DNA of 34,068 bases from an uncultured Muribaculaceae bacterium (GTDB lineage: Bacteria > Bacillota_I > Bacilli_A > RF39 > UBA660), in NCBI GenBank assembly GCA_964655835.1, contig CAZZNR010000001.1, positions 1-34,068 on the forward strand, written 5' to 3'. Shown here one piece after another: positions 9,216 through 33,580 of the stretch. Made by a program: the position numbers and the translations under genes. How positions within the stretch are numbered: the first letter of the stretch is position 1; each line of letters starts with the position of its first letter. The notes beneath the pieces are model-generated. The model saw nothing but the letters and a program-made list of their open reading frames with translations. It ran no database searches and was not told the DNA's origin.

Positions 9216-9333
9216 TTAAACCCTCCTCTAATGTTTTGATTTCAGCATCTAAATTAGTTAAGAATTCTTCTAATTTATTATATTTATCAATCAATTCATC
9301 TGATGATAAATTGATAATATTATCAGTTTCCAA
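9208..9333 (-). CDS. Unlisted 41-aa acidic helical micro-protein (TTG start)
   Basis: Hand translation gives (M)ETDNIINLSSDELIDKYNKLEEFLTNLDAEIKTLEEGLNE*. AGGAGGG (9345-9339, overlapping the stop of the giant gene) lies 5 nt upstream of the TTG at 9333. Its last codons overlap the ATG (9215) of the next gene. It fills an otherwise unexplained 129-nt gap. It is probably missing from the ORF track because of its length. Confidence 0.5.
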   Translation of the reverse strand: METDNIINLSSDELIDKYNKLEEFLTNLDAEIKTLEEGLNE

Positions 9334-9344
9334 TATATCCCTCC

Positions 9345-15300: not shown

Positions 15301-16634
15301 ATCATAATATTAGTAACATTTAAATAATAATTACGATAATCAGTACCATTATGGACCGAAGTTAAAGTAAATGGTTTAGTATAGCTACTTCCCCATTCGG
15401 ATGTTACATTACTTTGTAAAACGATTATATTAGTATCTCTAGTAACTAAATAATAATAGGTTTCATTCGTGTTTAAAATTTCCGGATTACCATTTTTATA
15501 ATATTGGATAAGTTCATATACTTGACAAGACGAGCCACAGTTTCCTGATAGCCTTACCCCAGTACTACTATAATAACTACTTTGATTTTGACCACTTGTA
15601 AGGGTTAAGCGACGATAAAAACCGCTCATATTTGAGTTAGCAGTAAAACCATTTACAAAATTAGTAACATACTGAAAATCATTTGGAATAAAGGCTGTCA
15701 TAGTACCGCCTTCTAAACGATAATAGGTTTGATTATCTTGGTAATCTTCATTAATAATAATATCATAGTAGGTACATCCAAAGAAAGAACGACAAGTACA
15801 ACTAGATTGAAGAACGCCACTACTATCATAATATCCTGTACAACTTCCATAAAATGATACTGATACACTTTTAAAATATCCCGCCATAGAATAAGGTAAA
15901 CGAATAGTATCCTGATATTGTAATTCCGCCATTTGTTTAGTAAGTAAAGGGCTAAAAGCACTTGACCAACTACCGGTCATATTACCCACATTAGCTAAAG
16001 TCCAAGAAGCATTAAAACTAATATTAATAATATCGGGGTTTCCACTAGTATATGTTACTGGTACTTGAGCATATCGAGTATAATAAGATGAATCAAAAGA
16101 GATAGTTGCTCCACTGTAACTGGTAACCCAACCATTAAATCCTTGATTAGTAGGTCGATTAGTAAAAGGATTTTCAATTAACTCAACAACAACATAATCA
16201 TCACTTAAATAAGCAGGAGTACCATTATCATTCACGGGATATACTTTATAATATTTATAAGTGTCTTGTAATTCTGATAGGGAAACATATCCTTTAAGAT
16301 TCTTAATAACATCAGTTGAATTATAAGTAATATTTATATTTACTAAGCGATTTTCATGATAGATATTTTGATCTACTCCTGTAGGAATTTGACCATTTTC
16401 TTTATAAGTATAATTAAGTCCTTTTAAATAAAAATAATCTCTTACTTTATCATCTACGATGACTTCATTTTGATATACCCCACTTAAATCTTCATTAAAA
16501 TCATTTATATAAGCAGGTTTAAATTCCCCTTTCGTAAAAACTAATTTAATAAGGATAATTAAAACAACCAAAAAAAAGCTTAAGAGTAAACCCATATTGA
16601 TATAAACTTTTTTTATTTTTTTTGGTTTTTTCAT
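9345..16634 (-). CDS. Giant (2429 aa) N-terminally anchored or exported surface protein with a central beta-helix-like repeat array
   Basis: Uninterrupted 7.3-kb ORF. The N-terminus is MKKPKKIKK plus one hydrophobic span. The N-terminal ~600 aa include Cys clusters (GSCTGYYDSSGVLQSSCTCRSFFGCTYYD, GNCGSSCQ). About 930 aa are (Y/F)GG-type coils. The C-terminal ~850 aa are beta-rich and T/N/S/Y-rich. There is no LPXTG-like sorting signal and no C-terminal hydrophobic tail. Confidence 0.8.
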   Translation of the reverse strand: MKKPKKIKKVYINMGLLLSFFLVVLIILIKLVFTKGEFKPAYINDFNEDLSGVYQNEVIVDDKVRDYFYLKGLNYTYKENGQIPTGVDQNIYHENRLVNINITYNSTDVIKNLKGYVSLSELQDTYKYYKVYPVNDNGTPAYLSDDYVVVELIENPFTNRPTNQGFNGWVTSYSGATISFDSSYYTRYAQVPVTYTSGNPDIINISFNASWTLANVGNMTGSWSSAFSPLLTKQMAELQYQDTIRLPYSMAGYFKSVSVSFYGSCTGYYDSSGVLQSSCTCRSFFGCTYYDIIINEDYQDNQTYYRLEGGTMTAFIPNDFQYVTNFVNGFTANSNMSGFYRRLTLTSGQNQSSYYSSTGVRLSGNCGSSCQVYELIQYYKNGNPEILNTNETYYYLVTRDTNIIVLQSNVTSEWGSSYTKPFTLTSVHNGTDYRNYYLNVTNIMIRAYADTNIENIQIRSETNPANSSTTPTGSTSTRKVLFGRFNNLRVGRGITNYGTNVNFVDVIGGSNGNTGSSGSATKYKLIVESGIYQNMSIVNGGTSSYTAYINNKSVYGNDYDRVTNNNNNMQVIFCAAGSWGSTLYGENSNKPMFDLTVKSGSFGTNQYDYSAGLYVGGRSYGTHNAIRKAKIEGGWIYNVIGGPLTATNRSGINDSFIHMVGGNVEVIVGGAGVSATYGNRIIQVTGGTVNYTIFGGSNGYLGSGTDGTVNGDSFIYIGGTAEIGSQANVTAGNTIYGAEAGSVFGIGNGRSGYSTIGSSSNSNIMIKNLATINKNIYGGGNYGATGISGTTTTNIFIDGGVVKDSVYGGGNNNGAGTTSVSSTININMTSGEVEGSIYGGSNQQGIIYGSVNLNMIGGTCYDSVYGGGEGGYTSSSSPGTYVRDAINLTIGSESSVPIITNNLYGGSAFGTVNRADETLSLSSYGINMVINNMDISGSVYGGSKGSASFNPKVNGHIIITVNDGTIPDLFGGNDMSGSIAGNTTINLNGGTITNVYGGGNQVSGNNSFINLNGSTATNIFGGSNQSGNMISSTITLTSGSVTNVYGGNNVGGKTTTSNIEVKGGTLTNVYGGGKLADTGKTNITLTSGSVPYVYGGGESASIDTDTNIELINSSVDNLFGGSNQSGNVPISNIDLKGGTSTNVYGGNNAGGKTTNSYITTTNGTFTNIYGGGRLADTGKTTIDISGGTISNVYGGGDQASIDVDTNIHINSGTITNVYGGSNNSGTIINSNIHILGGSTIALFGGNNMGGTTTNTYITVDSGNVTSIYGGGNQANTTTSNIQINNNSNQINYVYGGGNAANVTTSNVDILGGNIKYVYGGSNQSGIVTTSNVTVNNNPTITDIYGGNNAGGSTTTSNIDTNGGTINNVFGGGNQAYTGSTNLNIINTTINNEIYGGGKDGALQGSASTKITDSDILGSVYSGGKGSTAVVIGSTTLNIEGSTIVGEHVFGGGNAAATGTEALKNSSSIVNIAGAEIGGNVYGGANTSVVYGTTEVNIGNITNLDNDKITIGGTVFGGGEANASGSEIYDFSFISVTNGININIKNTATNDIEIDGSIFGSGNASSTTGASYIYIDNYGTEVNHKRNISIQRATLVTLNNSHIELFGATDRTNEYSNVLFSLSRINELKLSDDSSIYLETGTNLLKKFTSVVDTVNNVKANVLIDDGTITKNVNNRLYALEGVNINVATNESITSYGIVSGMTFFGMYLRDGDGNVVEAFYNNSYDNGDTVNPGEFYTFSSGSYVLGSHVANHNIEVDGFYTNYQDEENEDIIEVKYIDPIPESSNYYMWTIGEIVSSYEVDLIASRFSTLGAYELSLINSPDPNTTFSIIGVNYNGLPSNFELVDSSTIPRLSIDGTSDTKMALTMRSSNTGWITVGETKFYTANLEPIGTTNYLSENSSTVPSLLFNLYHSKNISSAGDIGTVVLNLVAIKPIDDLNNEITRVNININLSKALYTSTEYEGALTSGEEHELFVSTNTNITDKSKLSAYYSLFIDNTNNIYQTGYHRSLVSSFVLPENTKITMIDFTTATPTYYYYITTAQDVISATAEFNLHNEASYKLSKFIKMGSTSLNNNYDDATQNSLYYDPNTRIANEEFIFIVDYEETNITSDKLNSTLLLEIRDSNEQTMIGVLGINYSNLTYDIYNDQDALVGITASLSKQNIYIKEATNLIVNTNFTQAAVGGVTIHDTTYYYKKLGLKLSVYDENNNQLNGASLLGVTFTLNGITYYPRMDGTTRINISPKVANVLSNITIDTSNSTLPSGAYTIKVESFGSTDGIYYGLVSSDTKVVTLNLLNNIHGLKTTIADSLVNIDKTTGKTANGNSILIFNVEYASGLSDPNLRISLKRRDYSEIYSLDYVPVDMSDYFTHAYTQVGDLAKYEYLLSNNLQANQIVNLYLKNNLVTGTYKVGFALYDDDNFIGEVYNYIIIR
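11941..14738 (-). repeat. Array of ~24-25-aa coils with consensus x-(I/V)-(Y/F)-G-G-(G/S/N)-N ... T-x-I-x-(I/L)-x-G-G-T inside the giant ORF
   Basis: The array runs from GGWIYNVIGGP (14707-14738) to DGSIFGSGNASS (11941-11975). The most regular part contains a 297-nt (99-aa, four-coil) tandem duplication at about 12987-13580. Boundaries are approximate. Confidence 0.75.
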
Positions 16635-16644
16635 GCTTTCCTTT

Positions 16645-17613
16645 CTACTGAGCTACGAATTGTAAATTAATAATTAAACTGCCTTGTGAGGCGCTGTTTT
16701 CACAGTCAATATCTTGTCCTTCAACCCAAATATAAACTCTTAATTTAGTTATTCCCGGAGCGATATCAGTAAAATAATGATAATTTTCATCATTTTTAAT
16801 CGTTGTAATATTAGGTTTAACTAATTTAAAGTACTGGGGATAATCAGCACTATTTGCTTTACTAACATTCAATTCTAATTCCGCTGGGATTTCATTTGCT
16901 ACGCCATAATAAGGAATAATATTGGCATTATTTTCTGTTGTTATAATATTATAAATAGTTTTAGCATGATCGATAGCAGCTAGGGTATGAGTATCATAAT
17001 TGGGTTCCCATACAATTGATTCATTACCATTATTTAAGTTTTGAATCAGATTTATATTAGAACTTGATGAAAGATTCCCTTTGTTAATAAAACCAATTCG
17101 AAAGGCATTTTCTATTCCGGTAGGTTGAGAAACATCGGTTTTATAACTAACTCCCGAATCAGGAACAATTTGTAATTTTTTAGGTGAGGTGGATTTAACG
17201 AAAATATCGAAACTAACATACTTTCCATCCGAATCATTCATTAAAGCCGCTTTTTCAGTTTCGCGAAAGGTTGTTAAGTAAAAATGCTTTCTAACATTAA
17301 CCGTGCCATAAAACATTTTTAATAGACCATTTTCTACTTCACCAGCGGTTGATACTGGTAATACCATATTGGGAATTTGATTTTTATTTGCTGGATAGGT
17401 ATTAACTGCCGCCATAAAATCGGCCATTCCAACGACGCCTTTCCAGTCAATTGCATCAGTTGATATTTGTAATCCTCCTTTGGTTGCAATCTGAATATCA
17501 AATGATTCAATTTCAAATATTCTATTTGTAGTAAACCAGGCATAAGTAGTCATGGCTAATAAAAGCCCTGTAATAAATACCCATACTAATAATATCAATC
17601 TTCTCTTTTTCAT
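16645..17613 (-). CDS. Exported TasA-like protein with TTYAWFT signal and WVEGQDIDC motif (paralogue of 4352-5365)
   Basis: N-terminus MKKRR plus hydrophobic span plus TTYAWFTTNR. Colinear motif set with 4352-5365. Single Cys. ATGA overlap with the upstream gene and a 10-nt gap to the giant gene. Confidence 0.7.
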   Translation of the reverse strand: MKKRRLILLVWVFITGLLLAMTTYAWFTTNRIFEIESFDIQIATKGGLQISTDAIDWKGVVGMADFMAAVNTYPANKNQIPNMVLPVSTAGEVENGLLKMFYGTVNVRKHFYLTTFRETEKAALMNDSDGKYVSFDIFVKSTSPKKLQIVPDSGVSYKTDVSQPTGIENAFRIGFINKGNLSSSSNINLIQNLNNGNESIVWEPNYDTHTLAAIDHAKTIYNIITTENNANIIPYYGVANEIPAELELNVSKANSADYPQYFKLVKPNITTIKNDENYHYFTDIAPGITKLRVYIWVEGQDIDCENSASQGSLIINLQFVAQ

Positions 17614-18320
17614 GATTTATTTTCCTCAAAATAACTTTCAATGATCCTAACTTTAACTTTTAATTCTCCACCAATTAAATTGTCTAAGCAATCCGGATCA
17701 TCGCCTTCAATCCACATTACAATGGTATATTTATCGATTTCGTTTGGCATAATGGCTTTTCTTTGTTCTAAAACAGCCTTTTTTTCATTATAGAAAGCTT
17801 TTGTTCCTTCTTCTTCACGATTAGTTAAAGCATTCATTTTAGCATATACTGTTTTAGTTTCATTTTGGTAAATCATAAATCTTACAGCTTCATCGACATT
17901 TCTAATAACATCAACTATTTCAACTTCATACCAATAATTAACGGCTTGTAAGCCATTATTTTCAATAAAAAAAGTATAGGATATATAATTTTCCCCATTA
18001 TTAGTTCCCCCACTATGCTCATGCAAATTATTAGGTAACCAATCAATTGAAATATTATCCATAAAATCAATCTCATTAGCATATAATTTTATTTTATCAT
18101 CTTTTAATTCAGCATTATCATACATTTTAAGACCACTTTTTAAAGAAAACTGCGGATCTAGCGTAATGGTAAAGTCACCGCCTTGATATACTAAAGACAA
18201 AATAGCAAACAAAAATAATATAAACAAGATTAGAATAATCAATAGTTTAGATACTAATTTAATTCTTTTTTCCCGTTTATCGAGTTTTTCAGCAGTGAAT
18301 TTAACATAACCTCTACTCAT
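17610..18320 (-). CDS. Membrane-anchored (N-terminal tail plus one TM) protein with TasA-like core and WIEGDDPDC motif; first gene of the minus-strand operon
   Basis: About 22-aa basic cytoplasmic tail, then TM LLIILILFILFLFAILSLVY. Motifs YISYTFFIENNGLQAVNYWYEV and KYTIVMWIEGDDPDCLDNLIGGELKVKVRI. Single Cys. RBS AGGAAG. Confidence 0.65.
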   Translation of the reverse strand: MSRGYVKFTAEKLDKREKRIKLVSKLLIILILFILFLFAILSLVYQGGDFTITLDPQFSLKSGLKMYDNAELKDDKIKLYANEIDFMDNISIDWLPNNLHEHSGGTNNGENYISYTFFIENNGLQAVNYWYEVEIVDVIRNVDEAVRFMIYQNETKTVYAKMNALTNREEEGTKAFYNEKKAVLEQRKAIMPNEIDKYTIVMWIEGDDPDCLDNLIGGELKVKVRIIESYFEENKS

Positions 18321-18428: not shown

Positions 18429-18956
18429 ATGAGAAGTATAATAAGCAGAGTATTAATATTGATATATTTATTAATAGTTATAACTGTATCAGGCTATATC
18501 TTTATGTATGACTCTTTAGGAATTTCCAGTGATAAAAAATATACTATTTTTGCTTCAGAAAATTTAAAATCATTTAAAGAAGGCTCATTAATAATTGCCA
18601 AAAAAAATCACCATATAAAAGTTAATGACAGCATTCTTTTTTATAATTTTTATACTAATAAGAATAAAATACTAGAAGGAAAAGTTATTTCTTATGAAAA
18701 AACTAATGACGATGTAATAACTTATGAACTTGATAATCAACGTTTTGTATCAAGTAATTATGTTTTAGGTAATTTAGATGATGCTAATACAATTCCTTTA
18801 TTAGGATATGTTTTTAAAACCCTTACTAGTGCTTGGGGTTATTTATTATTTGCTTTAATTCCAACAATGATTCTTTTTGTTTATCAATTAAATAATTTTA
18901 TAAAAACAGTTAAAATTGGTGGTGCTAGCGATGATCAAAAAATTAAGAAAAAATAA
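18429..18956 (+). CDS. SipW-like pseudo-peptidase 2 (paralogue of 7170-7688; catalytic boxes absent)
   Basis: N-terminal TM span. It has the EGSLIIAKK..VNDSILFYNF strand pattern and the C-terminal TM GYLLFALIPTMILFVYQLN, which aligns with the C-terminus of 7170-7688. There is no SM.P Ser box, and LEGKVIS stands where the His box is expected. Confidence 0.6.
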   Translation: MRSIISRVLILIYLLIVITVSGYIFMYDSLGISSDKKYTIFASENLKSFKEGSLIIAKKNHHIKVNDSILFYNFYTNKNKILEGKVISYEKTNDDVITYELDNQRFVSSNYVLGNLDDANTIPLLGYVFKTLTSAWGYLLFALIPTMILFVYQLNNFIKTVKIGGASDDQKIKKK

Positions 18957-19839
18957 GTTCATTTTGATTCCTCTTCTTATTTTATCAGTAGTTTTAATCA
19001 CTACTTTAGGGCGATTCGTTTATATTGAAATAAGAAAAAATTTTGTCAATAGTGAAAACTTTTACTTTGAAAGTGACAAATTAAGAGAAAATAATGCCGT
19101 TTATCAAGTAAATAACTATAATGGTGTCGATAATTATGATATAGTTATTAATATGAACAGTATAAAAAATAATAAACTACGAGCAACTACTGATATTAGT
19201 TATGATATTAGTTATACTTGTTCAGCTAAAGCTAATTGCAGCGTTAGCAAAACAACAGGTACTATTTATGAAGCAACAGGAACTGATTTCTTTATTGTAT
19301 CTCTAAGTCCGAGTACTAGTTTAAGTAATGGTGATTCTATTGGGGTTGATATTGAAGTAGAATCTACCTCTCCTTATGAAAAAGGTTTAAGTGCCACATT
19401 TACTTTAGTAGTAGGCAATTATGGTTTATCTTATGAAATATATGATGAAGTAGGAAGACCATATATTGAATTTAAAATGACTAATACTTTAGATTATTAC
19501 ACAGTTAAAGAAGCCTTTTCAACTTATCAAGTTAATGATTTGATTGATATTGAGACTTATTTAAGTTTAAGCGATACCGATAAGAATAAATGTGCTTCAG
19601 CCATCATTAATTTGGATTTTGATCCTAATGTCATAATATTTGATAATGCAAGTATTGTAAAAGGTTTAATATCTACTAGCACAACACTAATTGGGGGCTA
19701 TAACTATATTGATGAGTTATCGTTTAAAATTGATGCAATATCAAGTATGATTGTAAGGTTTTATAAAAAGAATCGAAATCTTGATTATACTTACCCCATA
19801 GTTAATCAATACCCGATATTAAATGTTACCTATAGTTAA
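18931..19839 (+). CDS. Exported beta-rich protein with N-terminal signal or anchor (..ITTLGRFVYIEIRK); minor-subunit candidate
   Basis: The track start is TTG at 18916. The ATG at 18931 (MIKKLRKNKF..) is preceded by GGTGGTG. It has one hydrophobic span followed by a 270-aa S/T/N/Y/D-rich sequence. Confidence 0.55.
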   Translation: MIKKLRKNKFILIPLLILSVVLITTLGRFVYIEIRKNFVNSENFYFESDKLRENNAVYQVNNYNGVDNYDIVINMNSIKNNKLRATTDISYDISYTCSAKANCSVSKTTGTIYEATGTDFFIVSLSPSTSLSNGDSIGVDIEVESTSPYEKGLSATFTLVVGNYGLSYEIYDEVGRPYIEFKMTNTLDYYTVKEAFSTYQVNDLIDIETYLSLSDTDKNKCASAIINLDFDPNVIIFDNASIVKGLISTSTTLIGGYNYIDELSFKIDAISSMIVRFYKKNRNLDYTYPIVNQYPILNVTYS

Positions 19840-19851
19840 AAAGGAGGAGTT

Positions 19852-20811
19852 ATGAATAGTAATATTATTTCAGAATATATTAATTTTTCGAAACAATGTA
19901 TTAATCGCTATTTTAAAACAATATTAGACAAAGAATATAATAAAGATATTGTTAATAAATTAATAAATTCATATATTGATTCTAGATATTATACTAATAG
20001 CGAAAATCTTCCTCTTACAATTAGAACGAATTTAAATGAAGCTGCTAAAGATTTTAAAGGAATAGATTTAAAACTAGCTCATGATGTTATCAAAACATTT
20101 AATTTTATTATGTATTTTGATAACGTAATTGAATGTGAATCAACCGTTAAAGTTATTGAAGCGATCGCTTCATTTAGAGTAAATGTTTTAGGTATGAAAA
20201 AAGACAATAAATTTAATGATTCTTTATTTGAAATGGTTAAAGAAGATTTAATTAAGAAAAAAGAATATTTAGATACTTATGATGGTGATAAATTTAATTT
20301 TGAATATAGCTTAACTAATAAAGATAATGTATATAATGTCCATCTTAAACAAAATTTGAAGTTCCCGGTTGTTTATAACTCAACTGTTATTGACCGTGTT
20401 TTTAAATCTAAAGAATTAGATAATAAAAGATCTTTAGTAGAATATAACTATACTGCTCTCCAAATATTAAGAGATATTATTCAAGGAAAGTATTATGAAT
20501 ATTTAATATCCTATCCAAGTTCAATAAGTCAAAAAGTTAAAAATATGGAAAAACTCTTTATTATTATTAACCATGAAATGATGTTAAACCGTATTACTAT
20601 TAAAATAAATTATGAAGATTTTATTAGAGAAAAAGAATATATTTATGAATATATGAGAATGGGTTATATGTTTGCGGCCTGTATAGATAATACTTTTATT
20701 GAAAATGATACTAATTTAAATTTTTTAAAAGTATTTAAATATATAATTGTAAGCCGCAGAAATAATTTTATGGAAATTAATAAATATCCAAATATTATAA
20801 AGGTAGATTAG
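19852..20811 (+). CDS. Cytoplasmic protein, unknown function (first gene of the AAA+ sub-cluster)
   Basis: Strong RBS AAGGAGGAG. 319 aa with no hydrophobic span. The C-terminal half has an alternating beta/alpha pattern (RITIKINYEDF .. MGYMFAACIDNTF .. FLKVFKYIIVS). Confidence 0.6.
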   Translation: MNSNIISEYINFSKQCINRYFKTILDKEYNKDIVNKLINSYIDSRYYTNSENLPLTIRTNLNEAAKDFKGIDLKLAHDVIKTFNFIMYFDNVIECESTVKVIEAIASFRVNVLGMKKDNKFNDSLFEMVKEDLIKKKEYLDTYDGDKFNFEYSLTNKDNVYNVHLKQNLKFPVVYNSTVIDRVFKSKELDNKRSLVEYNYTALQILRDIIQGKYYEYLISYPSSISQKVKNMEKLFIIINHEMMLNRITIKINYEDFIREKEYIYEYMRMGYMFAACIDNTFIENDTNLNFLKVFKYIIVSRRNNFMEINKYPNIIKVD

Positions 20812-20817
20812 AGGAGT

Positions 20818-22344
20818 ATGGAAACATTTTTTAGATTTGCATATGAAATATTAAGCGCCTTCTTAGAAGGATTTATCCATGTAGTCAAAGCCATTATTGA
20901 CTCTTTTACTATGACATTCGATATTAAAGATTATATCGTTATCATAAATCGTTATAGTAATGATTTAAGTACTCCAGAATGGATATTAGTGGTAATTCTT
21001 TTTATTGTTATATTAGGTATTATAGCTTCCGTGATTTTCTTAATCGTAATATTGGTAAAAAAATATATTCGTATCAGAAAGAGTCTTGTTGAACAAGAAA
21101 GTTTATTAGAAGAAGTTGCTAATCTAAATAAAAAAGTATTATCTTTGTCAAAAGAAAAAGATGAAATTCTAGCTATGAAAGTATCCCAATTAGGATTAAA
21201 ACCTGGTGATGCTTTAAGTGAAGATAAACCTGAAGGTAATGAAGAAGAATTATTAGAAGATTCTGATGTTAGATTTTCAAAACTAAATCAAGTTGATAGA
21301 GACTACCAAAGTTATAAAATTACTAATTATGAAAATAATTTTAAATTACCAGAATTAGTTGATATGTTCAGAAATTTTGCTGCTAGTAAATTAGGGCTAT
21401 ATTACTCCGAAGATATGATTAGATTATTTGTTTCAGCTTTAGCCTCAACTAAATTAATTATTTTACAAGGTATATCTGGTACTGGTAAAACTTCGCTGGC
21501 ATATGCATGGGGGAAATTTTTATCCAACGATTCATGTGTCGCTTCCGTTCAGCCATCATGGCGTGATAAAACCGAATTATTTGGTTATTTTAATGAATTT
21601 ACCAGAAAATTTAATGAAACCGATGTATTAAGAGAAATCTATTTAGCTAATTACACCGATGATATTTATACCATTATCTTAGATGAAATGAACATTGCGC
21701 GGGTCGAATATTATTTTGCAGAAATGTTATCTATTCTAGAAATGCCCGATAAAAACGAATGGATAGTTGAATTAGTTTCTAGTGCTTGGGATAGTGATCC
21801 TAAAAAAATACAACGAGGTAAATTAAAAATAGCTCCTAATGTTTGGTATATTGGAACAATCAATAATGATGACTCAACCTTTATGGTAACTGATAAAGTT
21901 TATGACCGTGCTATGCCAATCGATATTAATGAAAAAGGTCAGGTATTTAAACCTAAAGATGTTTCAGCTCAAAAAATTAATTATAGCTATGTCAGTAAAT
22001 TGTTTGAAGATGGTATGAATGCTCATTTTATATCTAATGATAACTTAAAGAAAATTGAAGATATGGATAATTATGTTATTCAACACTTTAGAATCGCTTT
22101 TGGTAATAGAATTGTTATGCATATGCAAAAATTTGTTCCTATTTATATGGCCAGCGGAGGTGATGAAGTTGCTGGAATTGACTACTTCGTTGCCCGTAAA
22201 ATTATCAGGAAATTTGAACAATTAAATATTTCCTATATTAGAGATGAAGTAGATGGTTTTATTGATTTCTTAAATACTACTTTTGGTCAAGATAAAATGA
22301 AAGAATGTATTGAATATTTAGTTAGACTTAAGAAAAGTATATAG
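20818..22344 (+). CDS. Membrane-anchored McrB-family (AAA_5-type) AAA+ NTPase with a short coiled coil
   Basis: Walker A LQGISGTGKTS. Walker B plus McrB-family signature IILDEMNIARVEYYFAEMLSILE. Also WYIGTINNDDSTFMVTDKVYDRAMPIDI. N-terminal single TM EWILVVILFIVILGIIASVIFLIVILV followed by KKYIRIRK, which places the ATPase in the cytoplasm. Then LVEQESLLEEVANLNKKVLSLSKEKDEILAM. No recognisable DNA-binding N-domain. Confidence 0.8.
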   Translation: METFFRFAYEILSAFLEGFIHVVKAIIDSFTMTFDIKDYIVIINRYSNDLSTPEWILVVILFIVILGIIASVIFLIVILVKKYIRIRKSLVEQESLLEEVANLNKKVLSLSKEKDEILAMKVSQLGLKPGDALSEDKPEGNEEELLEDSDVRFSKLNQVDRDYQSYKITNYENNFKLPELVDMFRNFAASKLGLYYSEDMIRLFVSALASTKLIILQGISGTGKTSLAYAWGKFLSNDSCVASVQPSWRDKTELFGYFNEFTRKFNETDVLREIYLANYTDDIYTIILDEMNIARVEYYFAEMLSILEMPDKNEWIVELVSSAWDSDPKKIQRGKLKIAPNVWYIGTINNDDSTFMVTDKVYDRAMPIDINEKGQVFKPKDVSAQKINYSYVSKLFEDGMNAHFISNDNLKKIEDMDNYVIQHFRIAFGNRIVMHMQKFVPIYMASGGDEVAGIDYFVARKIIRKFEQLNISYIRDEVDGFIDFLNTTFGQDKMKECIEYLVRLKKSI

Positions 22345-22351
22345 GTGAATT

Positions 22352-23491
22352 ATGAATGATTTAAATGTAGTGGATCTATATCATAATTCTAGTGATAATA
22401 AAAGGAAAGATTTCTTAAAAAACCATAAAACCAAAATTAAGATTGATCATAATTTCGAAAAAAATATTGTTGATGATTCATGGTTAATAAAAATAGAAGA
22501 AAATATTCGTTATATAGATAATATATTAAGAAATCCTAATCGTTTTATTATAAATGAAGAAGAAATAGTTAAAGTAGAACTAGCTAAAAGAATTACAGTT
22601 GACAGCATTAAACATTTATCGCGAAATACTAGTTTTATTCAAGATATTGATGAAGTTACTGGTGATGTAAAACCTTCCAAAGTATTAAATATTAATAAAG
22701 AAGAAAGTTTTAATACATATGAAAATAGGTTTATTTATACTTTAATAAAAAATTTAATGATGTATGTTGATATTAAAAAAAGAAGTATAAACTTAGGGGC
22801 TTCAAGCAAAAATGATAAATTACTTACGTATGAAGGCGAATCTAAAGTTGGTAATGAAAACGTTAATATTAGTTTAGTTTTAAATAGTTCTATGAAAGAT
22901 GATATTTTTATTAATGAATTAGAAAAAAGGATTAATAAAGTTGAATTTCAAATTAAAGATTTAGTTAATACCGATTTATATAAAAATATTGATCGTTTAA
23001 GAGTCGCTTTAGTAACTGCCCCGATTAAAAAAACTAATTTAATCTTAAAAAATACTAATTTCCAGCATGCTGTTGCTCTTTGGAATTTTCTCCAAGAAGA
23101 AATGAATGATAATTCGGAAGTTGAAACCGGCAATAATGTAATTGAAAATGATCCCAAAATAAAAAAATTACTAGATGAAACTTTCTTACTTAATTATTTT
23201 ATTTTAAACTCAGTTGATAACGATGAAAAATTAGATAATGATAAAAAAATAAAACAAAATCGCGATGTTCTTATTAATAATATGATTCAAGATTTAGTAG
23301 TAACTAATCGCGACTTAACAATTGATCAATTAGGTGATATAGTAAATAAACAAATCCAATTAGTCAAGAAACAAGCTTTAGCAGATGAAAAAGAAATTAG
23401 AGCCATATTTGAATCAGCTATCAATGAATATTTGGAAATGATATATAATGCTAATTTAGGTGATGAAGATGAACAAGTTAATAAACAATAA
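22352..23491 (+). CDS. McrC-like partner protein without recognisable PD-(D/E)xK nuclease motif
   Basis: It starts 8 nt after the AAA+ gene. It contains ESFNTYENRFIYTLIKNL, which resembles the conserved (S/T)xENR(F/I/L) helix I remember from McrC/DUF2357-type partners, then ..NFQHAVALWNFL.. and ..LLDETFLLNYFI... The C-terminus is helical and acidic, and I found no D..(D/E)xK pattern. The assignment is from memory of motifs, not a search. Confidence 0.5.
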   Translation: MNDLNVVDLYHNSSDNKRKDFLKNHKTKIKIDHNFEKNIVDDSWLIKIEENIRYIDNILRNPNRFIINEEEIVKVELAKRITVDSIKHLSRNTSFIQDIDEVTGDVKPSKVLNINKEESFNTYENRFIYTLIKNLMMYVDIKKRSINLGASSKNDKLLTYEGESKVGNENVNISLVLNSSMKDDIFINELEKRINKVEFQIKDLVNTDLYKNIDRLRVALVTAPIKKTNLILKNTNFQHAVALWNFLQEEMNDNSEVETGNNVIENDPKIKKLLDETFLLNYFILNSVDNDEKLDNDKKIKQNRDVLINNMIQDLVVTNRDLTIDQLGDIVNKQIQLVKKQALADEKEIRAIFESAINEYLEMIYNANLGDEDEQVNKQ

Positions 23492-24032
23492 ATTTATGAA
23501 ATTTTTATGGAAATTTATCCAAATTGTTTTGGGGATTATTTTATTCTTTATTTTAATTATTATTGTTACCCAAAGAGTTTTTAATAATAAATTTTCTTTT
23601 TTAGGTTATCAAATATATACTGTAGCAACCGGTAGTATGGTACCAAAGTATAATGTTCATGATTTAATATTAGCTAAAAAAATTAATCCTGATGATATTA
23701 AAGTAAAAGATGATATAGTCTACAATGTTAAAGAAGGTGACTTAATAGGTAATACTATCACTCACCAAGTAATTGAAATCCAAGAAAAAGATGGCAAAAG
23801 GTATTTTGTTACCCAAGGTATTGCTAATCCACTAGCAGATCCTTTAGTTGATGAATATCAAGTTCAAGGGAAAATAATTTATAAATTAGTCTCTTTCAGT
23901 TTAATAAATAAAACAATAAATACTAATATAGGATTCTTTTTATTAATTGTAATACCCATCGCAGTTTTAATATTATTAGAAATAATAGACCTAAAAGAAA
24001 AAAGAGAAAGTTTAAGTATTAAAGATGAGTAG
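23469..24032 (+). CDS. Signal peptidase I, SipW type (S26B), with a variant Asp box
   Basis: The track start is GTG at 23460. The ATG at 23469 has AGGTGA 6 nt upstream. Ser box VATGSMVPKY and His box TITHQVIEI are present. The Asp box reads TQGIANPLADP (GIAN instead of GDxN). N- and C-terminal TM spans. It overlaps the end of 22352-23491. Confidence 0.75.
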   Translation: MNKLINNKFMKFLWKFIQIVLGIILFFILIIIVTQRVFNNKFSFLGYQIYTVATGSMVPKYNVHDLILAKKINPDDIKVKDDIVYNVKEGDLIGNTITHQVIEIQEKDGKRYFVTQGIANPLADPLVDEYQVQGKIIYKLVSFSLINKTINTNIGFFLLIVIPIAVLILLEIIDLKEKRESLSIKDE

Positions 24033-24615
24033 TATCGATTTAAGAAAAAAACTTAAAAAAAGTATTAGATTAAAATTACTAATAATTTTAGGAACCTTAT
24101 TAGTAGTAAATACTTTTGCTTGGTTAATATATACAAATACGATTGGTACTACCATCACTGCTTCAATTAAAGCTTGGAAAATAACTTTCAGTAGTAATAA
24201 TGAAGTAGTTGAATATGTCGAATTTGACATTAATGAACTATATCCAGGAATGCCTGATTATGATAATTATATTAAGATAATTAATTATGGTGAAATTGAA
24301 GCTGATGTTTCATACGAATTAGAAGAAGTCACAATATTAGGTACTACTTATACGGATGAAGATTATACTAGTTTAGAATTACTAGGTATATTAAACGCTA
24401 ATCCTTTTCAAGTAACATTTAGTTTTGACAAAACTACGGTTGGGATTGCAGAAGACTTCGCTGAATTTAATGTTAATATCACTTGGCCATATGAAAATGA
24501 TAATGATGTAGCTGATACCCAATGGGGTTATGATGCTTATAATTTTAATCAAGACTATCCGGGCGATCCCCATTTAACAATTATACTTAAATTAATTGCT
24601 AATCAATCGCAGTAA
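24025..24615 (+). CDS. Exported TasA-like protein (..VNTFAWLIYTNT signal region)
   Basis: 8-nt overlap with the peptidase gene. Motifs ASIKAWKITFSSNN, LYPGMPDYDNYIKIINYGEIEADVSYEL, NVNITWPYENDND, and C-terminal ..KLIANQSQ. Confidence 0.65.
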   Translation: MSSIDLRKKLKKSIRLKLLIILGTLLVVNTFAWLIYTNTIGTTITASIKAWKITFSSNNEVVEYVEFDINELYPGMPDYDNYIKIINYGEIEADVSYELEEVTILGTTYTDEDYTSLELLGILNANPFQVTFSFDKTTVGIAEDFAEFNVNITWPYENDNDVADTQWGYDAYNFNQDYPGDPHLTIILKLIANQSQ

Positions 24616-25195
24616 CTTGCTTAAAGTTTATTAAGACACTTAAGACCGCTTGAGCTTGAGCTATGGTTGCATCGGTATCGGCCTCATTATCCATGGTTTC
24701 AGTTAAGGAATCTTCCCAAGTAATATAAATTCTAATTGTTTTAGTACGTTCTACTTCTGATAATAAGATTGTATTAGTAATATTGGTTAAACCCCCACTT
24801 ACGGGTACTATCGTTCCACCATCGATTGAATAACCCGTAACTATTAAATCAGTTACACCACTACTTTCGGGAATAGAAGTAACTATTGTATATTCAAAAG
24901 ATGTATCAACATTAGAATAATCTAAAACTAAATCAAAATAGCCAACTGACTGGGGAGCAAAAACTCCCTCTTTTACATGGTCGCTACTGATGGTTGAAGG
25001 AGTTATAGCATTAGTTATATATGAATTATCTATTATATCTTGGTTATTAATTGATATTTGCCATCTAGCAATCGATAAAGAAGCATCTCCTTGTGCAGCA
25101 GTATTATATTTACTATAGGTATCTTGAACCATACTAACCAAAGCAAAAAGAGATAAAAATGCTAATGCTAGTTTTATGTTATAAAATTTTGGCAT
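24599..25195 (-). CDS. Exported TasA-like protein (paralogue of 6586-7167), monocistronic
   Basis: Signal-like N-terminus ..LVSMVQDTYSKYNT. Motifs as listed for 6586-7167. It has its own promoter candidate. Its 3' end overlaps the convergent 24025-24615 by 17 nt. Confidence 0.65.
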   Translation of the reverse strand: MPKFYNIKLALAFLSLFALVSMVQDTYSKYNTAAQGDASLSIARWQISINNQDIIDNSYITNAITPSTISSDHVKEGVFAPQSVGYFDLVLDYSNVDTSFEYTIVTSIPESSGVTDLIVTGYSIDGGTIVPVSGGLTNITNTILLSEVERTKTIRIYITWEDSLTETMDNEADTDATIAQAQAVLSVLINFKQVTAID

Positions 25196-27193: not shown

Positions 27194-27324
27194 GTAATAC
27201 ACCTACTATTCAAATAATATTATAACATATAAAAACCATATACATGGCACTTTTATTTAATTAATTTATCTTTAAAAAGATATTACTCAGTTTACAATAA
27301 ATGAATCAATGCGAGCCTACATAA

Positions 27325-33529: not shown

Positions 33530-33551
33530 AATATCATCTCCGTATATTACC

Positions 33552-33580
33552 ATTTTATCATTCTTGATTGTTATTCACAA
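33552..33580 (-). promoter_or_regulatory. Candidate promoter for hybrid kinase 2
   Basis: Minus strand: TTGTGA (33580-33575), 17 nt, TAAAAT (33557-33552), with extended -10 TG. Confidence 0.35.

What the first reader, a model, noticed from the sequence alone, without database searches (positions are those of the whole stretch)
19852..23491. Membrane-anchored McrB-family AAA+ NTPase plus nuclease-less McrC-like partner embedded inside the fibre/peptidase operon
Seen in the sequence: 20818-22344 has unambiguous Walker A/B motifs and the McrB-type DEMN.ARVE.YF.E.LS.LE signature. Its N-terminus is a single TM helix plus a short coiled coil rather than a DNA-reader domain. The gene 8 nt downstream has a McrC-like (S/T)xENRF helix, but I found no PD-(D/E)xK pattern in it. 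That gene overlaps the start of an active SipW-type peptidase gene. The trio is preceded by a pseudo-peptidase and an exported protein, with no terminator or sizeable gap anywhere from 18429 to 24615.

Established knowledge: McrB hexamers with McrC are GTP-driven DNA translocase/nuclease restriction modules. Diversified McrBC relatives (for example coiled-coil fusions) are regarded as defence systems.

Inference: this module appears to have lost both the DNA reader and the nuclease. It is tethered to the membrane and is the only NTPase in a locus otherwise devoted to secreted fibre proteins. It may therefore be an exapted motor or checkpoint for fibre export or assembly. Alternatively it could be an unusual membrane-associated defence module nested in the operon.
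Basis: partly seen in the sequence, partly recalled or inferred. Interest (0 to 1): 0.85.

Follow-up and report, generated by a model that had tools for sequence, protein, structure and literature searches.

The report
Nuclease-free McrBC GTPase in pilus cluster
A membrane-anchored relative of the McrBC DNA-restriction motor, lacking both its DNA reader and its nuclease, is a conserved core gene pair of a signal-peptidase-dependent surface-protein cluster in gut Firmicutes; this kind of system was named "CoCoPALM" in 2024 but has never been studied.

Summary
20818-22344 encodes a 508-aa protein with one TM helix, a short heptad region and a McrB-type AAA+ GTPase domain. That domain matches E. 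coli McrB (hhalign E 4.5e-10). 22352-23491 encodes a 379-aa DUF2357 (McrC N-domain) protein. I found no nuclease motif, Pfam nuclease domain or nuclease fold in it.

The pair sits in a gap-free operon with SipW-type peptidases and exported proteins. It is not new as a kind. Bell et al. (eLife 2024) named this architecture CoCoPALM: an NxD-motif McrB GTPase fused to TM plus coiled coil, a McrC homologue, and signal-peptidase neighbours. They described it in one paragraph and did not analyse it further.

My survey covered 105 loci with enough flank.
- 104 keep the McrC-like gene and 89 keep SipW.
- The GTPase is the best-conserved protein of the cluster, and its divergence tracks that of the partner and the exported proteins.
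- McrC-like::SipW and SipW::u319 gene fusions exist.
- The upstream 319-aa protein models with an EAL-like C-terminal half, closest to FimX.
- Clostridial versions carry true EAL and GGDEF-EAL genes.
- Close relatives are absent from viral contigs.

An assembly or control role is better supported than defence. That role remains untested.

The parts
18429..18956 (+). First gene of the operon: a SipW-like pseudo-peptidase (175 aa) with N- and C-terminal hydrophobic segments. The catalytic Ser and His are replaced.
   Evidence: NCBIfam SipW E 3.5e-6. In alignment A4 it has SENL in place of GSM and no THR box. Hydropathy.
18916..19839 (+). Exported or anchored 307-aa protein (family 'e307'). It has a conserved T-x-G-R-Y motif at the end of the N-terminal hydrophobic segment.
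   Evidence: ORF, hydropathy. Homologues sit at the same position in 39 of 85 loci. Motif seen.
19852..20811 (+). Cytoplasmic 319-aa protein ('u319'). It has an N-terminal helical bundle and a C-terminal degenerate EAL-like domain. It is not a nuclease.
   Evidence: No TM segment and no Pfam family above threshold. AF2 model pLDDT 84.4, pTM 0.78. The best Foldseek PDB hits are FimX and other EAL domains (E 2e-3, probability 1.00, about 175-200 columns). In 13 loci the homologous domain is fused to the C-terminus of a SipW peptidase.
20818..22344 (+). TM plus coiled-coil plus McrB-like AAA+ GTPase with the NxD signature (508 aa).
   Evidence: More than 8000 homologues were found; the top 120 are full-length and at least 66% identical.
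20980..21054 (+). Single transmembrane helix of the GTPase (residues about 55-79), followed by the positively charged KKYIRIRK. This implies a cytoplasmic GTPase domain.
   Evidence: Kyte-Doolittle window maximum 3.48; sequence.
21067..21180 (+). Short heptad (coiled-coil-like) segment, residues 84-121.
   Evidence: Heptad a/d scan. Weak DivIC/FtsL_2 Pfam hits in 3 of 20 family members.
21469..21492 (+). Walker A, GISGTGKT (residues 218-225).
   Evidence: G218, G221, G223, K224 and T225 are invariant in A2.
21679..21693 (+). Walker B, LDEMN (residues 288-292), the start of the McrB-type DEMNIARVEYYFAE signature.
   Evidence: D289, N292, R295 and E297 are invariant. It aligns to DEINRANLSKVFGE of E. 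coli McrB.
21862..21873 (+). GTPase signature N349-N-D351-D352, the NxD variant followed by D.
   Evidence: Across the roughly 130 aligned representatives of at least 400 aa, N349 and D351 are invariant. The fourth position varies (D, E, Q, G or A).
22352..23491 (+). McrC-like partner (379 aa). It has a DUF2357 (McrC N-terminal) domain and a helical C-terminal tail, and no nuclease domain.
   Evidence: Pfam DUF2357 E 1.1e-11. The 120 best of 2889 homologues are 284-396 aa (nearly all 365-396) and carry only PF09823. No PDB profile hit. Foldseek gave nothing at E<=1e-3. No conserved (D/E)xK.
22508..22819 (+). DUF2357 core, including the nearly invariant block NPNRF...TYENRF. This is the putative finger that would insert into the GTPase ring.
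   Evidence: Invariant columns in A1. Residues 65-117 are the best-conserved part of the sequence yet have pLDDT below 50 in the monomer model.
23460..24032 (+). SipW/archaeal-type signal peptidase (190 aa) with two TM segments. Its start overlaps the McrC-like gene by 32 nt.
   Evidence: TIGR02228 E 5.3e-20. Ser and His are each present in 77 of 78 aligned family sequences (77 relatives plus the window's copy). The first Asp of GDxN is mostly I, V or L; the second Asp is present in 75 of 78.
24025..24615 (+). Last gene of the + strand operon: an exported 196-aa protein with an N-T-F-A-W motif after the hydrophobic segment.
   Evidence: A homologue is present in 54 of 85 loci.
24599..25195 (-). 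Convergent exported 198-aa protein (T-Y-S/A-K-Y motif), a conserved member of the cluster.
5450..18320 (-). Divergently transcribed part of the same conserved cluster. It contains an anchored 236-aa protein, a 322-aa YAWF-motif protein, a 2429-aa giant exported protein, 495-, 178-, 193- and 196-aa proteins, and an intact SipW paralogue (6006-6581). The 178-aa protein is a second pseudo-SipW.
   Evidence: The same families recur around the GTPase gene in most related loci. Peptidase motifs.

Best explanation
The finding is a CoCoPALM-type module. This is a McrBC derivative that has lost the DNA-binding domain and the nuclease and now serves as the cytoplasmic NTPase unit of a SipW-dependent surface-protein (putative pilus or fibre) cluster.

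**Shown**
- The GTPase is anchored by one TM helix and a short coiled coil. All McrB-type nucleotide-binding and hydrolysis motifs are invariant.
- The next gene encodes a DUF2357 (McrC N-domain) protein without a nuclease.
- The pair is co-inherited with SipW peptidases and with exported proteins carrying a conserved (S/T)YAWF- or TYAKY-type motif at the predicted cleavage site. This holds in many Bacilli and Clostridia genomes.
- In some genomes the McrC-like protein is fused through a coiled coil and a TM helix to SipW.
- In other genomes SipW is fused at its C-terminus to the u319 domain.
- The C-terminal half of u319 models as a degenerate EAL domain.
- Clostridial operons carry genuine EAL and GGDEF-EAL genes.

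**Inferred (from the solved McrBC mechanism: Nirwan 2019, Niu 2020, as summarised in PMC11090510)**
- Six GTPase subunits form a membrane-tethered ring.
- The highly conserved DUF2357 finger inserts into the ring and stimulates sequential GTP hydrolysis.
- The helical tail of the McrC-like protein, and the GTPase's own coiled coil and TM helix, couple these nucleotide-driven movements to SipW complexes in the membrane.
- Signal-anchor cleavage and hand-over of subunits to the growing fibre are thereby powered or gated.
- The EAL-like protein would provide c-di-GMP-dependent control. The parallel is FimX-PilZ-PilB in type IV pili.
For: **Identity of the two proteins**
- GTPase to McrB.
- NxD pattern.
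- TM and heptad region.
- DUF2357.
- The matching published description is PMC11090510, section 7.

**No nuclease found**
- Partner.
- u319.

**Linkage**
- The gene order pseudo-SipW, e307, u319, GTPase, McrC-like, SipW, exported protein recurs in loci whose GTPase is 49-72% identical.
- Of 105 loci with enough flank, 104 have the McrC-like gene, 89 have SipW and 88 have an exported-subunit family.

**Co-inheritance and constraint**
- The GTPase is the most conserved protein of the cluster: median 59% identity to the window's copy, against 31-43% for all the others.
- Its divergence tracks that of the McrC-like protein (rho 0.88), p236 (0.80), T322 (0.86) and p337 (0.77).

**Physical coupling**
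- McrC-like::coiled-coil::TM::SipW fusions occur in L071 and L075. SipW::u319 fusions occur in 13 loci.
- Both fusion topologies place DUF2357 and u319 in the cytoplasm and the peptidase domain outside.

**c-di-GMP link**
- u319 resembles the FimX EAL domain.
- Among the genome-derived loci (L001-L085), 17 carry a stand-alone EAL gene (Pfam 1.4e-46). Many of the Clostridia-type metagenome loci (L115-L165) do so as well.
- GGDEF-EAL genes close the operon in L124 and L143. L116 has an EAL-only protein of similar length in that position.

**Not mobile or phage-borne**
- Only 3 distant hits (26-34% identity) appeared in 2.9 million viral contigs.
- Flanking genes are housekeeping genes (secA, hpf, csd).
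Against: - No experiment exists for any member, and no filament has been shown.
- The exported proteins have no detectable similarity to TasA, camelysin or any solved pilin. 'Fibre' therefore rests on the SipW association, the conserved motif and the published inference.
- The partner shows no profile similarity to E. coli McrC (E 0.16). Its AF2 model is only moderate (pLDDT 66) and has no PDB neighbour. Its McrC-likeness rests on the DUF2357 hit and on gene adjacency.
- u319's EAL assignment is structural only. Foldseek E is 2e-3, Pfam finds no EAL, and hhalign against the operon EALs gives E 0.064.
- The two kinds of fusion may each derive from a single evolutionary event.
- Secretion of Sec substrates and donor-strand-type polymerisation do not in principle need a cytoplasmic NTPase. 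The module could therefore be regulatory rather than a motor.
- The closest relatives of the GTPase domain (CoCoNuT-type, PADLOC PDC-M26A) are regarded as defence candidates.
Confidence: 0.6

Rival explanations
1. It is a membrane-associated defence module, a Type IV-restriction or CoCoNuT relative nested in the operon. It would guard the surface fibre, a likely phage receptor, and trigger abortive infection or block DNA entry. An unrecognised effector would be needed, for example SipW-mediated cleavage of a target.
For: The GTPase is homologous to McrB. It hits a PADLOC candidate-defence model at E 2.4e-35. It belongs to the NxD branch that also contains the CoCoNuT systems, which are regarded as defence.
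Against: - No nuclease, HEPN domain or other effector domain is present in the pair or its cytoplasmic neighbour. In CoCoNuTs, loss of the McrC nuclease is always compensated by an adjacent nuclease.
- The operon position is fixed, and the genes diverge together with the structural genes across two bacterial classes.
- The GTPase is the most conserved gene of the cluster, unlike fast-evolving, patchily distributed defence genes.
- Close relatives are absent from viral contigs, and no mobile-element genes lie in the flanks.
- The c-di-GMP genes and peptidase fusions point to envelope biology.
Confidence: 0.12
2. It is a nucleotide-state switch or scaffold, not a force-generating motor. The membrane-tethered GTPase ring, the McrC-like protein and the EAL-like protein together would form a checkpoint. 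It would license SipW cleavage only under certain conditions (c-di-GMP level, GTP level). The parallel is FtsB/FtsL-type regulators or FimX.
For: - The TM plus short coiled-coil architecture resembles FtsB/FtsL (PMC11090510; weak DivIC/FtsL_2 hits).
- u319 resembles the degenerate c-di-GMP receptor FimX.
- EAL and GGDEF-EAL genes occur in the operon.
- Pseudo-peptidases in the cluster suggest regulated peptidase complexes.
- Sec-dependent export needs no extra motor (established knowledge).
Against: All hydrolysis motifs (Walker B, sensor-like Asn, conserved Arg residues) are invariant over wide divergence. So is the putative stimulatory finger of the partner. This argues for active turnover rather than mere binding. 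Nothing computed here separates 'motor' from 'switch'.
Confidence: 0.25
3. The co-location has no functional meaning. The pair acts in another membrane process, such as cell division or envelope remodelling, and merely shares an operon.
For: The N-terminus is FtsB-like. The exported proteins are uncharacterised.
Against: SipW linkage is seen in 89 of 105 loci and exported-subunit linkage in 88 of 105, across distant lineages. Gene fusions join SipW to both cytoplasmic partners. Start and stop codons overlap within the operon.
Confidence: 0.03

Closest known systems
[quoted passage not shown]
   Same: An NxD-type McrB GTPase is fused to an FtsB-like TM plus coiled-coil N-terminus. A DUF2357 McrC homologue is adjacent. 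Signal-peptidase-family genes are associated. All of this was verified here.
   Different: Nothing essential differs; the window is a member. The paper gives one paragraph and defers the analysis. Several things seen here are not mentioned in the text I read:
- the EAL-like u319 protein and the c-di-GMP genes;
- the SipW fusions;
- the pseudo-peptidases;
- the short (about 370 aa) McrC-like form in the Bacilli lineage, against 680-1080 aa coiled-coil forms in Clostridia.
Canonical McrBC Type IV restriction enzyme (E. coli McrB/McrC; PDB 6hz4, 6ut6)
   Same: The AAA+ GTPase core is homologous, with a matching Walker A, Walker B and signature region. The two-gene arrangement also matches: the GTPase gene is followed by its partner gene.
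   Different: - It has no N-terminal DNA-binding domain; a TM helix and coiled coil stand in its place.
- The signature is NxD rather than NxxD.
- The partner has no PD-(D/E)xK domain and no detectable similarity to E. coli McrC.
- The genomic context is a secretion and peptidase operon, not a restriction island.
CoCoNuT systems (CnuB/CnuC)
   Same: They lie in the same NxD branch of McrB GTPases. They carry coiled-coil fusions, and the McrC homologue often lacks an active nuclease. The PADLOC PDC-M26A hit probably reflects this relationship.
   Different: CoCoNuTs always carry a HEPN domain or another nuclease next to the pair, and they are soluble. Here no nuclease was found, the GTPase is membrane-anchored, and the neighbours are peptidases and exported proteins.
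B. subtilis tapA-sipW-tasA type fibre operons
   Same: A dedicated SipW-type (ER/archaeal-type) signal peptidase is encoded together with its exported substrates. Those substrates share a conserved motif at the end of the signal sequence.
   Different: The classical system has no NTPase. The exported proteins here show no detectable sequence similarity to TasA or camelysin. The cluster is also much larger: five SipW paralogues, two of them pseudo-peptidases, and a 2429-aa protein.
FimX-PilZ-PilB control of type IV pilus assembly (analogy only)
   Same: The C-terminal half of the 319-aa neighbour models as a degenerate EAL domain, and its best structural matches are FimX EAL domains. It is encoded immediately next to the assembly-associated hexameric NTPase gene.
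   Different: The NTPase family differs (McrB-type AAA+ against the PilB secretion ATPase). So does the subunit-processing peptidase (SipW against the prepilin peptidase). c-di-GMP binding by u319 is untested, and the canonical EAL motifs are not detectable by Pfam.

Membership tests
CoCoPALM (Bell et al. 2024) | A McrB-like GTPase carrying the NxD variant of the NxxD signature. | tested here: met
   The window has GTIN-N-D-D. Across the roughly 130 aligned representatives of at least 400 aa, N349 and D351 are invariant. The following residue varies (D, E, Q, G or A). This matches 'NxD usually followed by E or D'.
CoCoPALM (Bell et al. 2024) | The GTPase is fused to an FtsB-like N-terminal region (a transmembrane helix plus a coiled coil). 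| tested here: inconclusive
   The architecture is met: one TM helix at about 55-79 and a heptad region at 84-121. Homology to FtsB/DivIC is not established: DivIC hit 1 of 20 members (E 0.012) and FtsL_2 hit 2 of 20.
CoCoPALM (Bell et al. 2024) | An adjacent McrC homologue (DUF2357). | tested here: met
   Pfam DUF2357 E 1.1e-11. The gene is present in 104 of 105 related loci.
CoCoPALM (Bell et al. 2024) | A coiled coil on the McrC homologue ('usually'). | tested here: inconclusive
   The window's partner has only a helical tail at 296-367 with low-to-moderate pLDDT. Clostridial orthologues carry very long K/E/A-rich helical extensions of 300-700 aa.
CoCoPALM (Bell et al. 2024) | Association with signal-peptidase-family genes. 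| tested here: met
   A SipW gene overlaps the 3' end of the partner gene. SipW lies within 5 kb in 89 of 105 loci.
Canonical McrBC restriction system | A McrB AAA+ GTPase domain. | tested here: met
   hhalign to E. coli McrB residues 161-355: probability 96.7%, E 4.5e-10. PDB 6hz4 E 2.4e-4.
Canonical McrBC restriction system | An N-terminal DNA-recognition domain on McrB. | tested here: not met
   Residues 1-190 are an amphipathic segment, a TM helix, a heptad region and an acidic linker. No DNA-binding family was hit.
Canonical McrBC restriction system | A McrC partner with a PD-(D/E)xK nuclease domain. | tested here: not met
   - Only PF09823 is found in the 120 homologues listed.
- No conserved acidic/(D/E)xK motif.
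- No PDB profile hit.
- No Foldseek hit at E<=1e-3; model pLDDT 66.
- hhalign to E. coli McrC gives E 0.16.
CoCoNuT | A HEPN domain or other nuclease encoded next to the GTPase/McrC pair. | tested here: not met
   No nuclease family was found in any operon protein. The only uncharacterised cytoplasmic neighbour models as EAL-like.
TasA/SipW fibre operon | A SipW-type (ER/archaeal-type) signal peptidase with the catalytic Ser and His. | tested here: met
   TIGR02228 E 5.3e-20. Ser and His are each present in 77 of 78 aligned family sequences. The first Asp of GDxN is replaced in most of them, including the window's copy.
TasA/SipW fibre operon | TasA/camelysin-family (Peptidase_M73-like) subunits. 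| tested here: inconclusive
   No Pfam or PDB-profile similarity for the T322/p337 family; no PDB-profile similarity for the T198 family.
EAL domain (for 19852-20811) | An EAL fold with the c-di-GMP-binding and catalytic motifs. | tested here: inconclusive
   Fold: the top Foldseek hits are EAL domains (FimX), with probability 1.00 but E only 2e-3 and TM 0.4-0.5 over the C-terminal half. Sequence: no Pfam EAL hit, and hhalign against the operon EALs gives E 0.064, though the alignment is colinear.

The most novel reading that the evidence does not exclude
The CoCoPALM module is the engine and control unit of a previously unrecognised class of Gram-positive surface-filament machinery. In this reading, a c-di-GMP-responsive, membrane-tethered McrB-type GTPase ring uses the McrC-like 'camshaft' to act mechanically on SipW signal peptidases. 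It thereby drives or gates cleavage and polymerisation of YAWF-motif subunits. This would make it a functional analogue of the PilB/PilC/prepilin-peptidase core of type IV pili, built from a restriction enzyme.
Probability: 0.35. Interest if true: 0.85.

Novelty: new member of a known kind. Interest (0 to 1): 0.5.

Why it matters
If the assembly or control reading is right, a DNA-restriction motor has been repurposed as the NTPase of an extracellular-fibre apparatus. That apparatus is widespread in uncultured gut and rumen Firmicutes: RF39-like Bacilli, and Clostridia MAGs labelled Ruminococcus, Acutalibacteraceae and Oscillospiraceae. It would add a new type of pilus or biofilm machinery and a new mechanical output for the McrBC ring-and-shaft design.

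The details added here give concrete hypotheses for the first experiments:
- peptidase fusions that define the likely contacts and membrane topology;
- an EAL-like partner and GGDEF/EAL genes that suggest c-di-GMP control;
- the GTPase being the most conserved gene of the cluster.

The kind itself is already named in the literature, so the value is as a well-characterised example rather than a discovery.

Tried and rejected
1. **Nuclease in the partner.** Pfam, NCBIfam and PADLOC, a PDB profile search at E<=10, Foldseek against the PDB, hhalign against E. coli McrC and motif conservation found nothing.
2. **Nuclease in 19852-20811.** No family hit. The AF2 model matches EAL domains, not nucleases.
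3. **TasA-likeness of the exported proteins.** Profile searches of two families against the PDB, and a Pfam scan of the T322/p337 family, gave nothing. I therefore do not call them TasA-like.
4. **FtsB homology of the N-terminus.** Only sporadic weak DivIC/FtsL_2 hits appeared.
5. **Sequence link between u319 and the operon EAL proteins.** hhalign E 0.064, which is too weak on its own.
6. **Literature.**
   - 'CoCoPALM' occurs only in Bell et al. and its preprint.
   - Searches for SipW+McrB and TasA+McrBC gave only strain-genotype mentions.
   - The supplements held as text contain nothing on CoCoPALM.
7. **Source organism.** Only the nearest named relatives ('Mollicutes bacterium' and 'Bacilli bacterium' MAGs) indicate the lineage.
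8. **Phage-borne origin.** No close relatives were found in viral contigs.
9. **Universality of the SipW link in the wider TM-McrB clade.** Rejected. A sister clade with two TM-GTPase paralogues has no SipW.

Full report
**1. What is in the sequence**

The + strand from 18429 to 24615 carries seven tightly packed ORFs. Junctions are 6-12 nt gaps or overlaps. No terminator-like site lies on that strand within the stretch. In order, the ORFs are:
- a 175-aa SipW-like protein lacking the catalytic Ser and His;
- a 307-aa protein with an N-terminal hydrophobic segment;
- a 319-aa protein without a TM segment ('u319');
- a 508-aa GTPase;
- a 379-aa DUF2357 protein;
- a 190-aa SipW-type peptidase (TIGR02228, E 5.3e-20), whose start overlaps the preceding gene by 32 nt;
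- a 196-aa exported protein.

The window is AT-rich (about 20-36% G+C).

**2. The GTPase (20818-22344)**

It carries GISGTGKT at residues 218-225, the only real P-loop in the window. It also carries LDEMNIARVEYYFAEMLSILE and GTINNDDST.

Evidence that the domain is McrB-like:
- It aligns to the AAA+ domain of E. coli McrB, with phmmer E 2.4e-4 against PDB 6hz4/6ut6.
- A family profile gives hhalign probability 96.7% and E 4.5e-10 over 175 columns.
- NCBIfam's McrB model hits at 5.5e-6, and PADLOC's candidate model PDC-M26A at 2.4e-35.

Residues 1-190 contain no DNA-binding family. They consist of an amphipathic N-terminal segment, one strongly hydrophobic helix (about 55-79), the basic stretch KKYIRIRK, a heptad-like region at 84-121 and an acidic linker. 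By the positive-inside rule the GTPase domain is cytoplasmic (inference).

In an alignment of the roughly 130 cluster representatives (50% identity clusters) of at least 400 aa, N349 and D351 are invariant, while the next residue is D, E, Q, G or A. This is the 'NxD, usually followed by E or D' variant that defines one major branch of McrB GTPases in Bell et al. 2024.

**3. The partner (22352-23491)**

Pfam DUF2357 hits at E 1.1e-11 over residues 53-156. Bell et al. treat DUF2357 as the McrC N-terminal domain.

The 120 best of 2889 homologues are 284-396 aa long (nearly all 365-396). They carry PF09823 and nothing else.

In 30 diverse homologues the block from N61 to R126 (NPNRF...TYENRF) is almost invariant. 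A second block, PIKKTN...NFQ, is also conserved. No conserved acidic residue followed by (D/E)xK exists.

Further searches on the partner:
- A profile search of all PDB sequences found nothing at E<=10.
- hhalign against E. coli McrC gave E 0.16.
- The AF2 model (pLDDT 66) found no PDB neighbour at E<=1e-3.

The most conserved segment, 65-117, is the least confident part of the monomer model. That is what one would expect of a finger that becomes ordered only inside the GTPase ring. This is inference from the solved McrBC complexes, not a result.

So 'nuclease-less' is well supported. 'McrC-like' rests on DUF2357 and on gene adjacency.

**4. The upstream 319-aa protein**

It evolves fast: only 16 homologues were found through the word index. 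It still models confidently (pLDDT 84.4, pTM 0.78), as a helical N-terminal half plus an alpha/beta C-terminal half.

The best Foldseek PDB matches are EAL domains. The first seven are FimX, the degenerate c-di-GMP receptor of type IV pilus control (E 2e-3 to 7e-3, probability 1.00, 175-200 columns, TM about 0.4-0.5). Pfam does not see an EAL domain. A profile comparison with genuine EAL proteins from related operons is colinear but weak (E 0.064).

I therefore call it EAL-like with moderate confidence. It is not a nuclease.

**5. Related loci**

Close homologues of the GTPase are abundant. More than 8000 were found, and the top 120 are full-length at 66-100% identity. They come from MAGs labelled Bacilli, Mollicutes, Tenericutes and Erysipelotrichaceae.

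I collected loci from three sources:
- five contig look-ups;
- 80 genome loci at 49-72% identity, from Bacilli and from Clostridia such as Ruminococcus sp. CAG:488, Acutalibacteraceae and Oscillospiraceae;
- 80 metagenome loci seeded with more distant TM-anchored relatives.

With profile HMMs built from the window's families, 105 loci have enough flank. Of these, 104 have the McrC-like gene next to the GTPase, 89 have a SipW gene within 5 kb, and 88 have at least one exported-subunit family.

The order seen in the window recurs in the Bacilli-type loci. The Clostridia-type loci read: EAL, p236, YAWF-protein, SipW, GTPase, McrC-like, SipW, GGDEF-EAL or EAL.

In Clostridia the McrC-like protein is 680-1080 aa, because of a very long K/E/A-rich helical tail. 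It again lacks any nuclease domain.

**6. Evidence bearing on function**

- **(a) Conservation.** The GTPase is the most conserved protein of the cluster: median 59% identity to the window's copy, against 31-43% for every other family. Its divergence correlates with that of the McrC-like protein (rho 0.88), p236 (0.80), T322 (0.86) and p337 (0.77). This is consistent with inheritance as one unit.
- **(b) McrC-like::SipW fusions.** In L071 and L075 the McrC-like protein continues through the coiled coil into a TM helix and a complete SipW domain. The HMM hits are 5e-57 and 4e-42 on one ORF, and Pfam S26 hits at 4.3e-5.
- **(c) SipW::u319 fusions.** In 13 loci the gene immediately upstream of the GTPase encodes SipW with a u319 domain after its C-terminal TM helix. 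Both fusion topologies place DUF2357 and u319 in the cytoplasm and the peptidase domain outside. This agrees with the hydropathy of the separate proteins.
- **(d) c-di-GMP genes.** Stand-alone EAL genes (Pfam 1.4e-46 and 3.9e-28) and GGDEF-EAL genes belong to the Clostridia-type operons.
- **(e) Viral contigs.** A scan of 2.9 million viral contigs found only three distant GTPase-domain relatives at 26-34% identity.
- **(f) Flanking genes.** Flanks in related loci are housekeeping genes such as secA, hpf and csd. The window itself carries no integrase, transposase or known defence gene.

**7. The exported proteins**

They share a conserved motif at the end of the N-terminal hydrophobic segment: (S/T)(S/T)YAWF(T/S), N-x-F-A-W-F, T-Y-A-K-Y or T-x-G-R-Y. 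Each fits the -3/-1 rule for a signal peptidase I site and resembles the SipW-cognate signal of TasA-type proteins. That comparison is from my own knowledge and was not tested.

Profile searches found no similarity to TasA, camelysin or any solved structure. 'Fibre' or 'pilus' is therefore an inference, shared with the literature, and not a result.

**8. Comparison with what is known**

Bell et al. [quoted passage not shown]
- the NxD GTPase is fused to an FtsB-like TM plus coiled-coil domain;
[quoted passage not shown] They name these systems CoCoPALM and defer them to a forthcoming paper. No later paper using the name is in the library. The window's module meets every feature I could test, so it is a member of that named but uncharacterised kind.

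It fails the defining features of canonical McrBC, which has a DNA reader, the NxxD signature and a PD-(D/E)xK McrC. It also fails those of CoCoNuTs, which always have an adjacent HEPN domain or other nuclease.

**9. Most likely mechanism**

Shown: the composition, the topology predictions, the conservation of catalytic motifs, the linkage and the fusions.

Inferred:
- a membrane-tethered hexameric GTPase ring;
- the DUF2357 finger inserted in the pore, stimulating sequential hydrolysis as in McrBC;
- nucleotide-driven movement or state passed through the McrC-like tail and the GTPase's own coiled coil and TM helix to SipW complexes, which include pseudo-peptidase paralogues;
- powering or gating of subunit cleavage and hand-over to a growing surface polymer;
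- the EAL-like protein supplying c-di-GMP control.

My probabilities:
- about 0.9 that this is a CoCoPALM-type nuclease-free McrBC derivative functionally tied to the SipW cluster;
- about 0.6 that its role is assembly or control of that apparatus as described;
- about 0.25 that it is a switch rather than a motor;
- about 0.12 that it is a defence module.

**10. Limits**

- There are no experimental data.
- The partner model is only moderate.
- The EAL assignment is structural only.
- The SipW link is not universal in the wider TM-McrB clade. Sixteen loci lack a nearby SipW. Eleven belong to a sister type with two TM-GTPase paralogues, described under things noticed in passing. L074 and L085 keep u319-like, GTPase and McrC-like genes and an ATYAYF- or ATYAFF-motif protein, but have no SipW nearby.
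- The source organism could not be named.

Noticed in passing
L088:6733-17214, L097:1017-17104, L113:5026-12983 (metagenome loci): A sister system was seen in at least 11 loci. Two TM-anchored McrB-like GTPase paralogues (about 430 and 460 aa) flank a 500-620-aa DUF2357 McrC-like gene. Large TM-anchored proteins with Transglut_core, YDG, MBG and AgI_II_C2 surface-adhesin domains follow. There is no SipW. This appears to be another nuclease-free, envelope-linked McrBC derivative.
   Followed up: partly
window 1474-2607(+), 6006-6581(-), 7170-7706(-), 18429-18956(+), 23460-24032(+): The window encodes five SipW/S26-family paralogues. Two have the full Ser/His/Asp set; one of these (1474-2607) is fused to an N-terminal polytopic membrane domain with multiple predicted TM segments. 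Two (7170-7706 and 18429-18956) lack both Ser and His and so are pseudo-peptidases. One (23460-24032) has Ile at the first Asp of the GDxN box.
   Followed up: partly
window 23460-24032 and 77 orthologues in the loci: In the SipW family encoded next to the McrC-like gene, Ser and His are each present in 77 of 78 aligned family sequences. The first Asp of the GDxN box is mostly I, V, L or T (D in only 18 of 78). A downstream Asp (xEDP) is kept in 75 of 78. This may be a specialised catalytic configuration.
   Followed up: partly
window 9345-16634 (-): A 2429-aa exported protein has dozens of degenerate 'YGG(S/G)N...' repeats, which suggest a beta-helix, and no Pfam hit. Homologues of 1000-2400 aa accompany the cluster in many loci. 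It may be the adhesin or cargo of the apparatus.
   Followed up: no
L116:12294-14597, L124:13496-15835, L143:11707-13974; L061:5469-6224, L071:3278-4042: Clostridia-type operons begin with a stand-alone EAL protein of about 250 aa. L124 and L143 end with a GGDEF-EAL protein of about 760 aa; L116 has an EAL-only protein of similar length there. Several canonical EAL positions look substituted in the stand-alone proteins; that is my reading of the consensus and was not tested rigorously.
   Followed up: partly
L074:8931-14291, L085:8916-15854: A reduced variant carries a u319-like gene, the GTPase (501 aa), the McrC-like gene (365 aa) and an extra cytoplasmic protein of 416-556 aa. No SipW lies within 10 kb, yet a protein of about 640 aa with an ATYAYF or ATYAFF signal motif is nearby. 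L074 also carries an ORF that looks like a group II intron reverse transcriptase (6159-7466).
   Followed up: no
window 25331-27202 (-) and 31586-33553 (-): Two paralogous hybrid histidine kinases (polytopic N-terminus, HisKA, HATPase_c, REC) flank the cluster. A homologue sits in the same relative position in L033 and L034, so they may regulate it.
   Followed up: no
window 27388-29295 (+): A 635-aa protein with TM segments has only a weak SLATT-like Pfam hit (E 0.008). Its function is unknown.
   Followed up: no
window 20818-20980 (GTPase residues 1-54): The segment before the TM helix is amphipathic and keeps a pattern F..Y......YS..F....W across the family. With a single TM helix it should lie outside the cell or on the membrane surface. 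More distant relatives (P0256, P0257, P0273) appear to have two TM helices instead, so the topology of this segment is unresolved.
   Followed up: no
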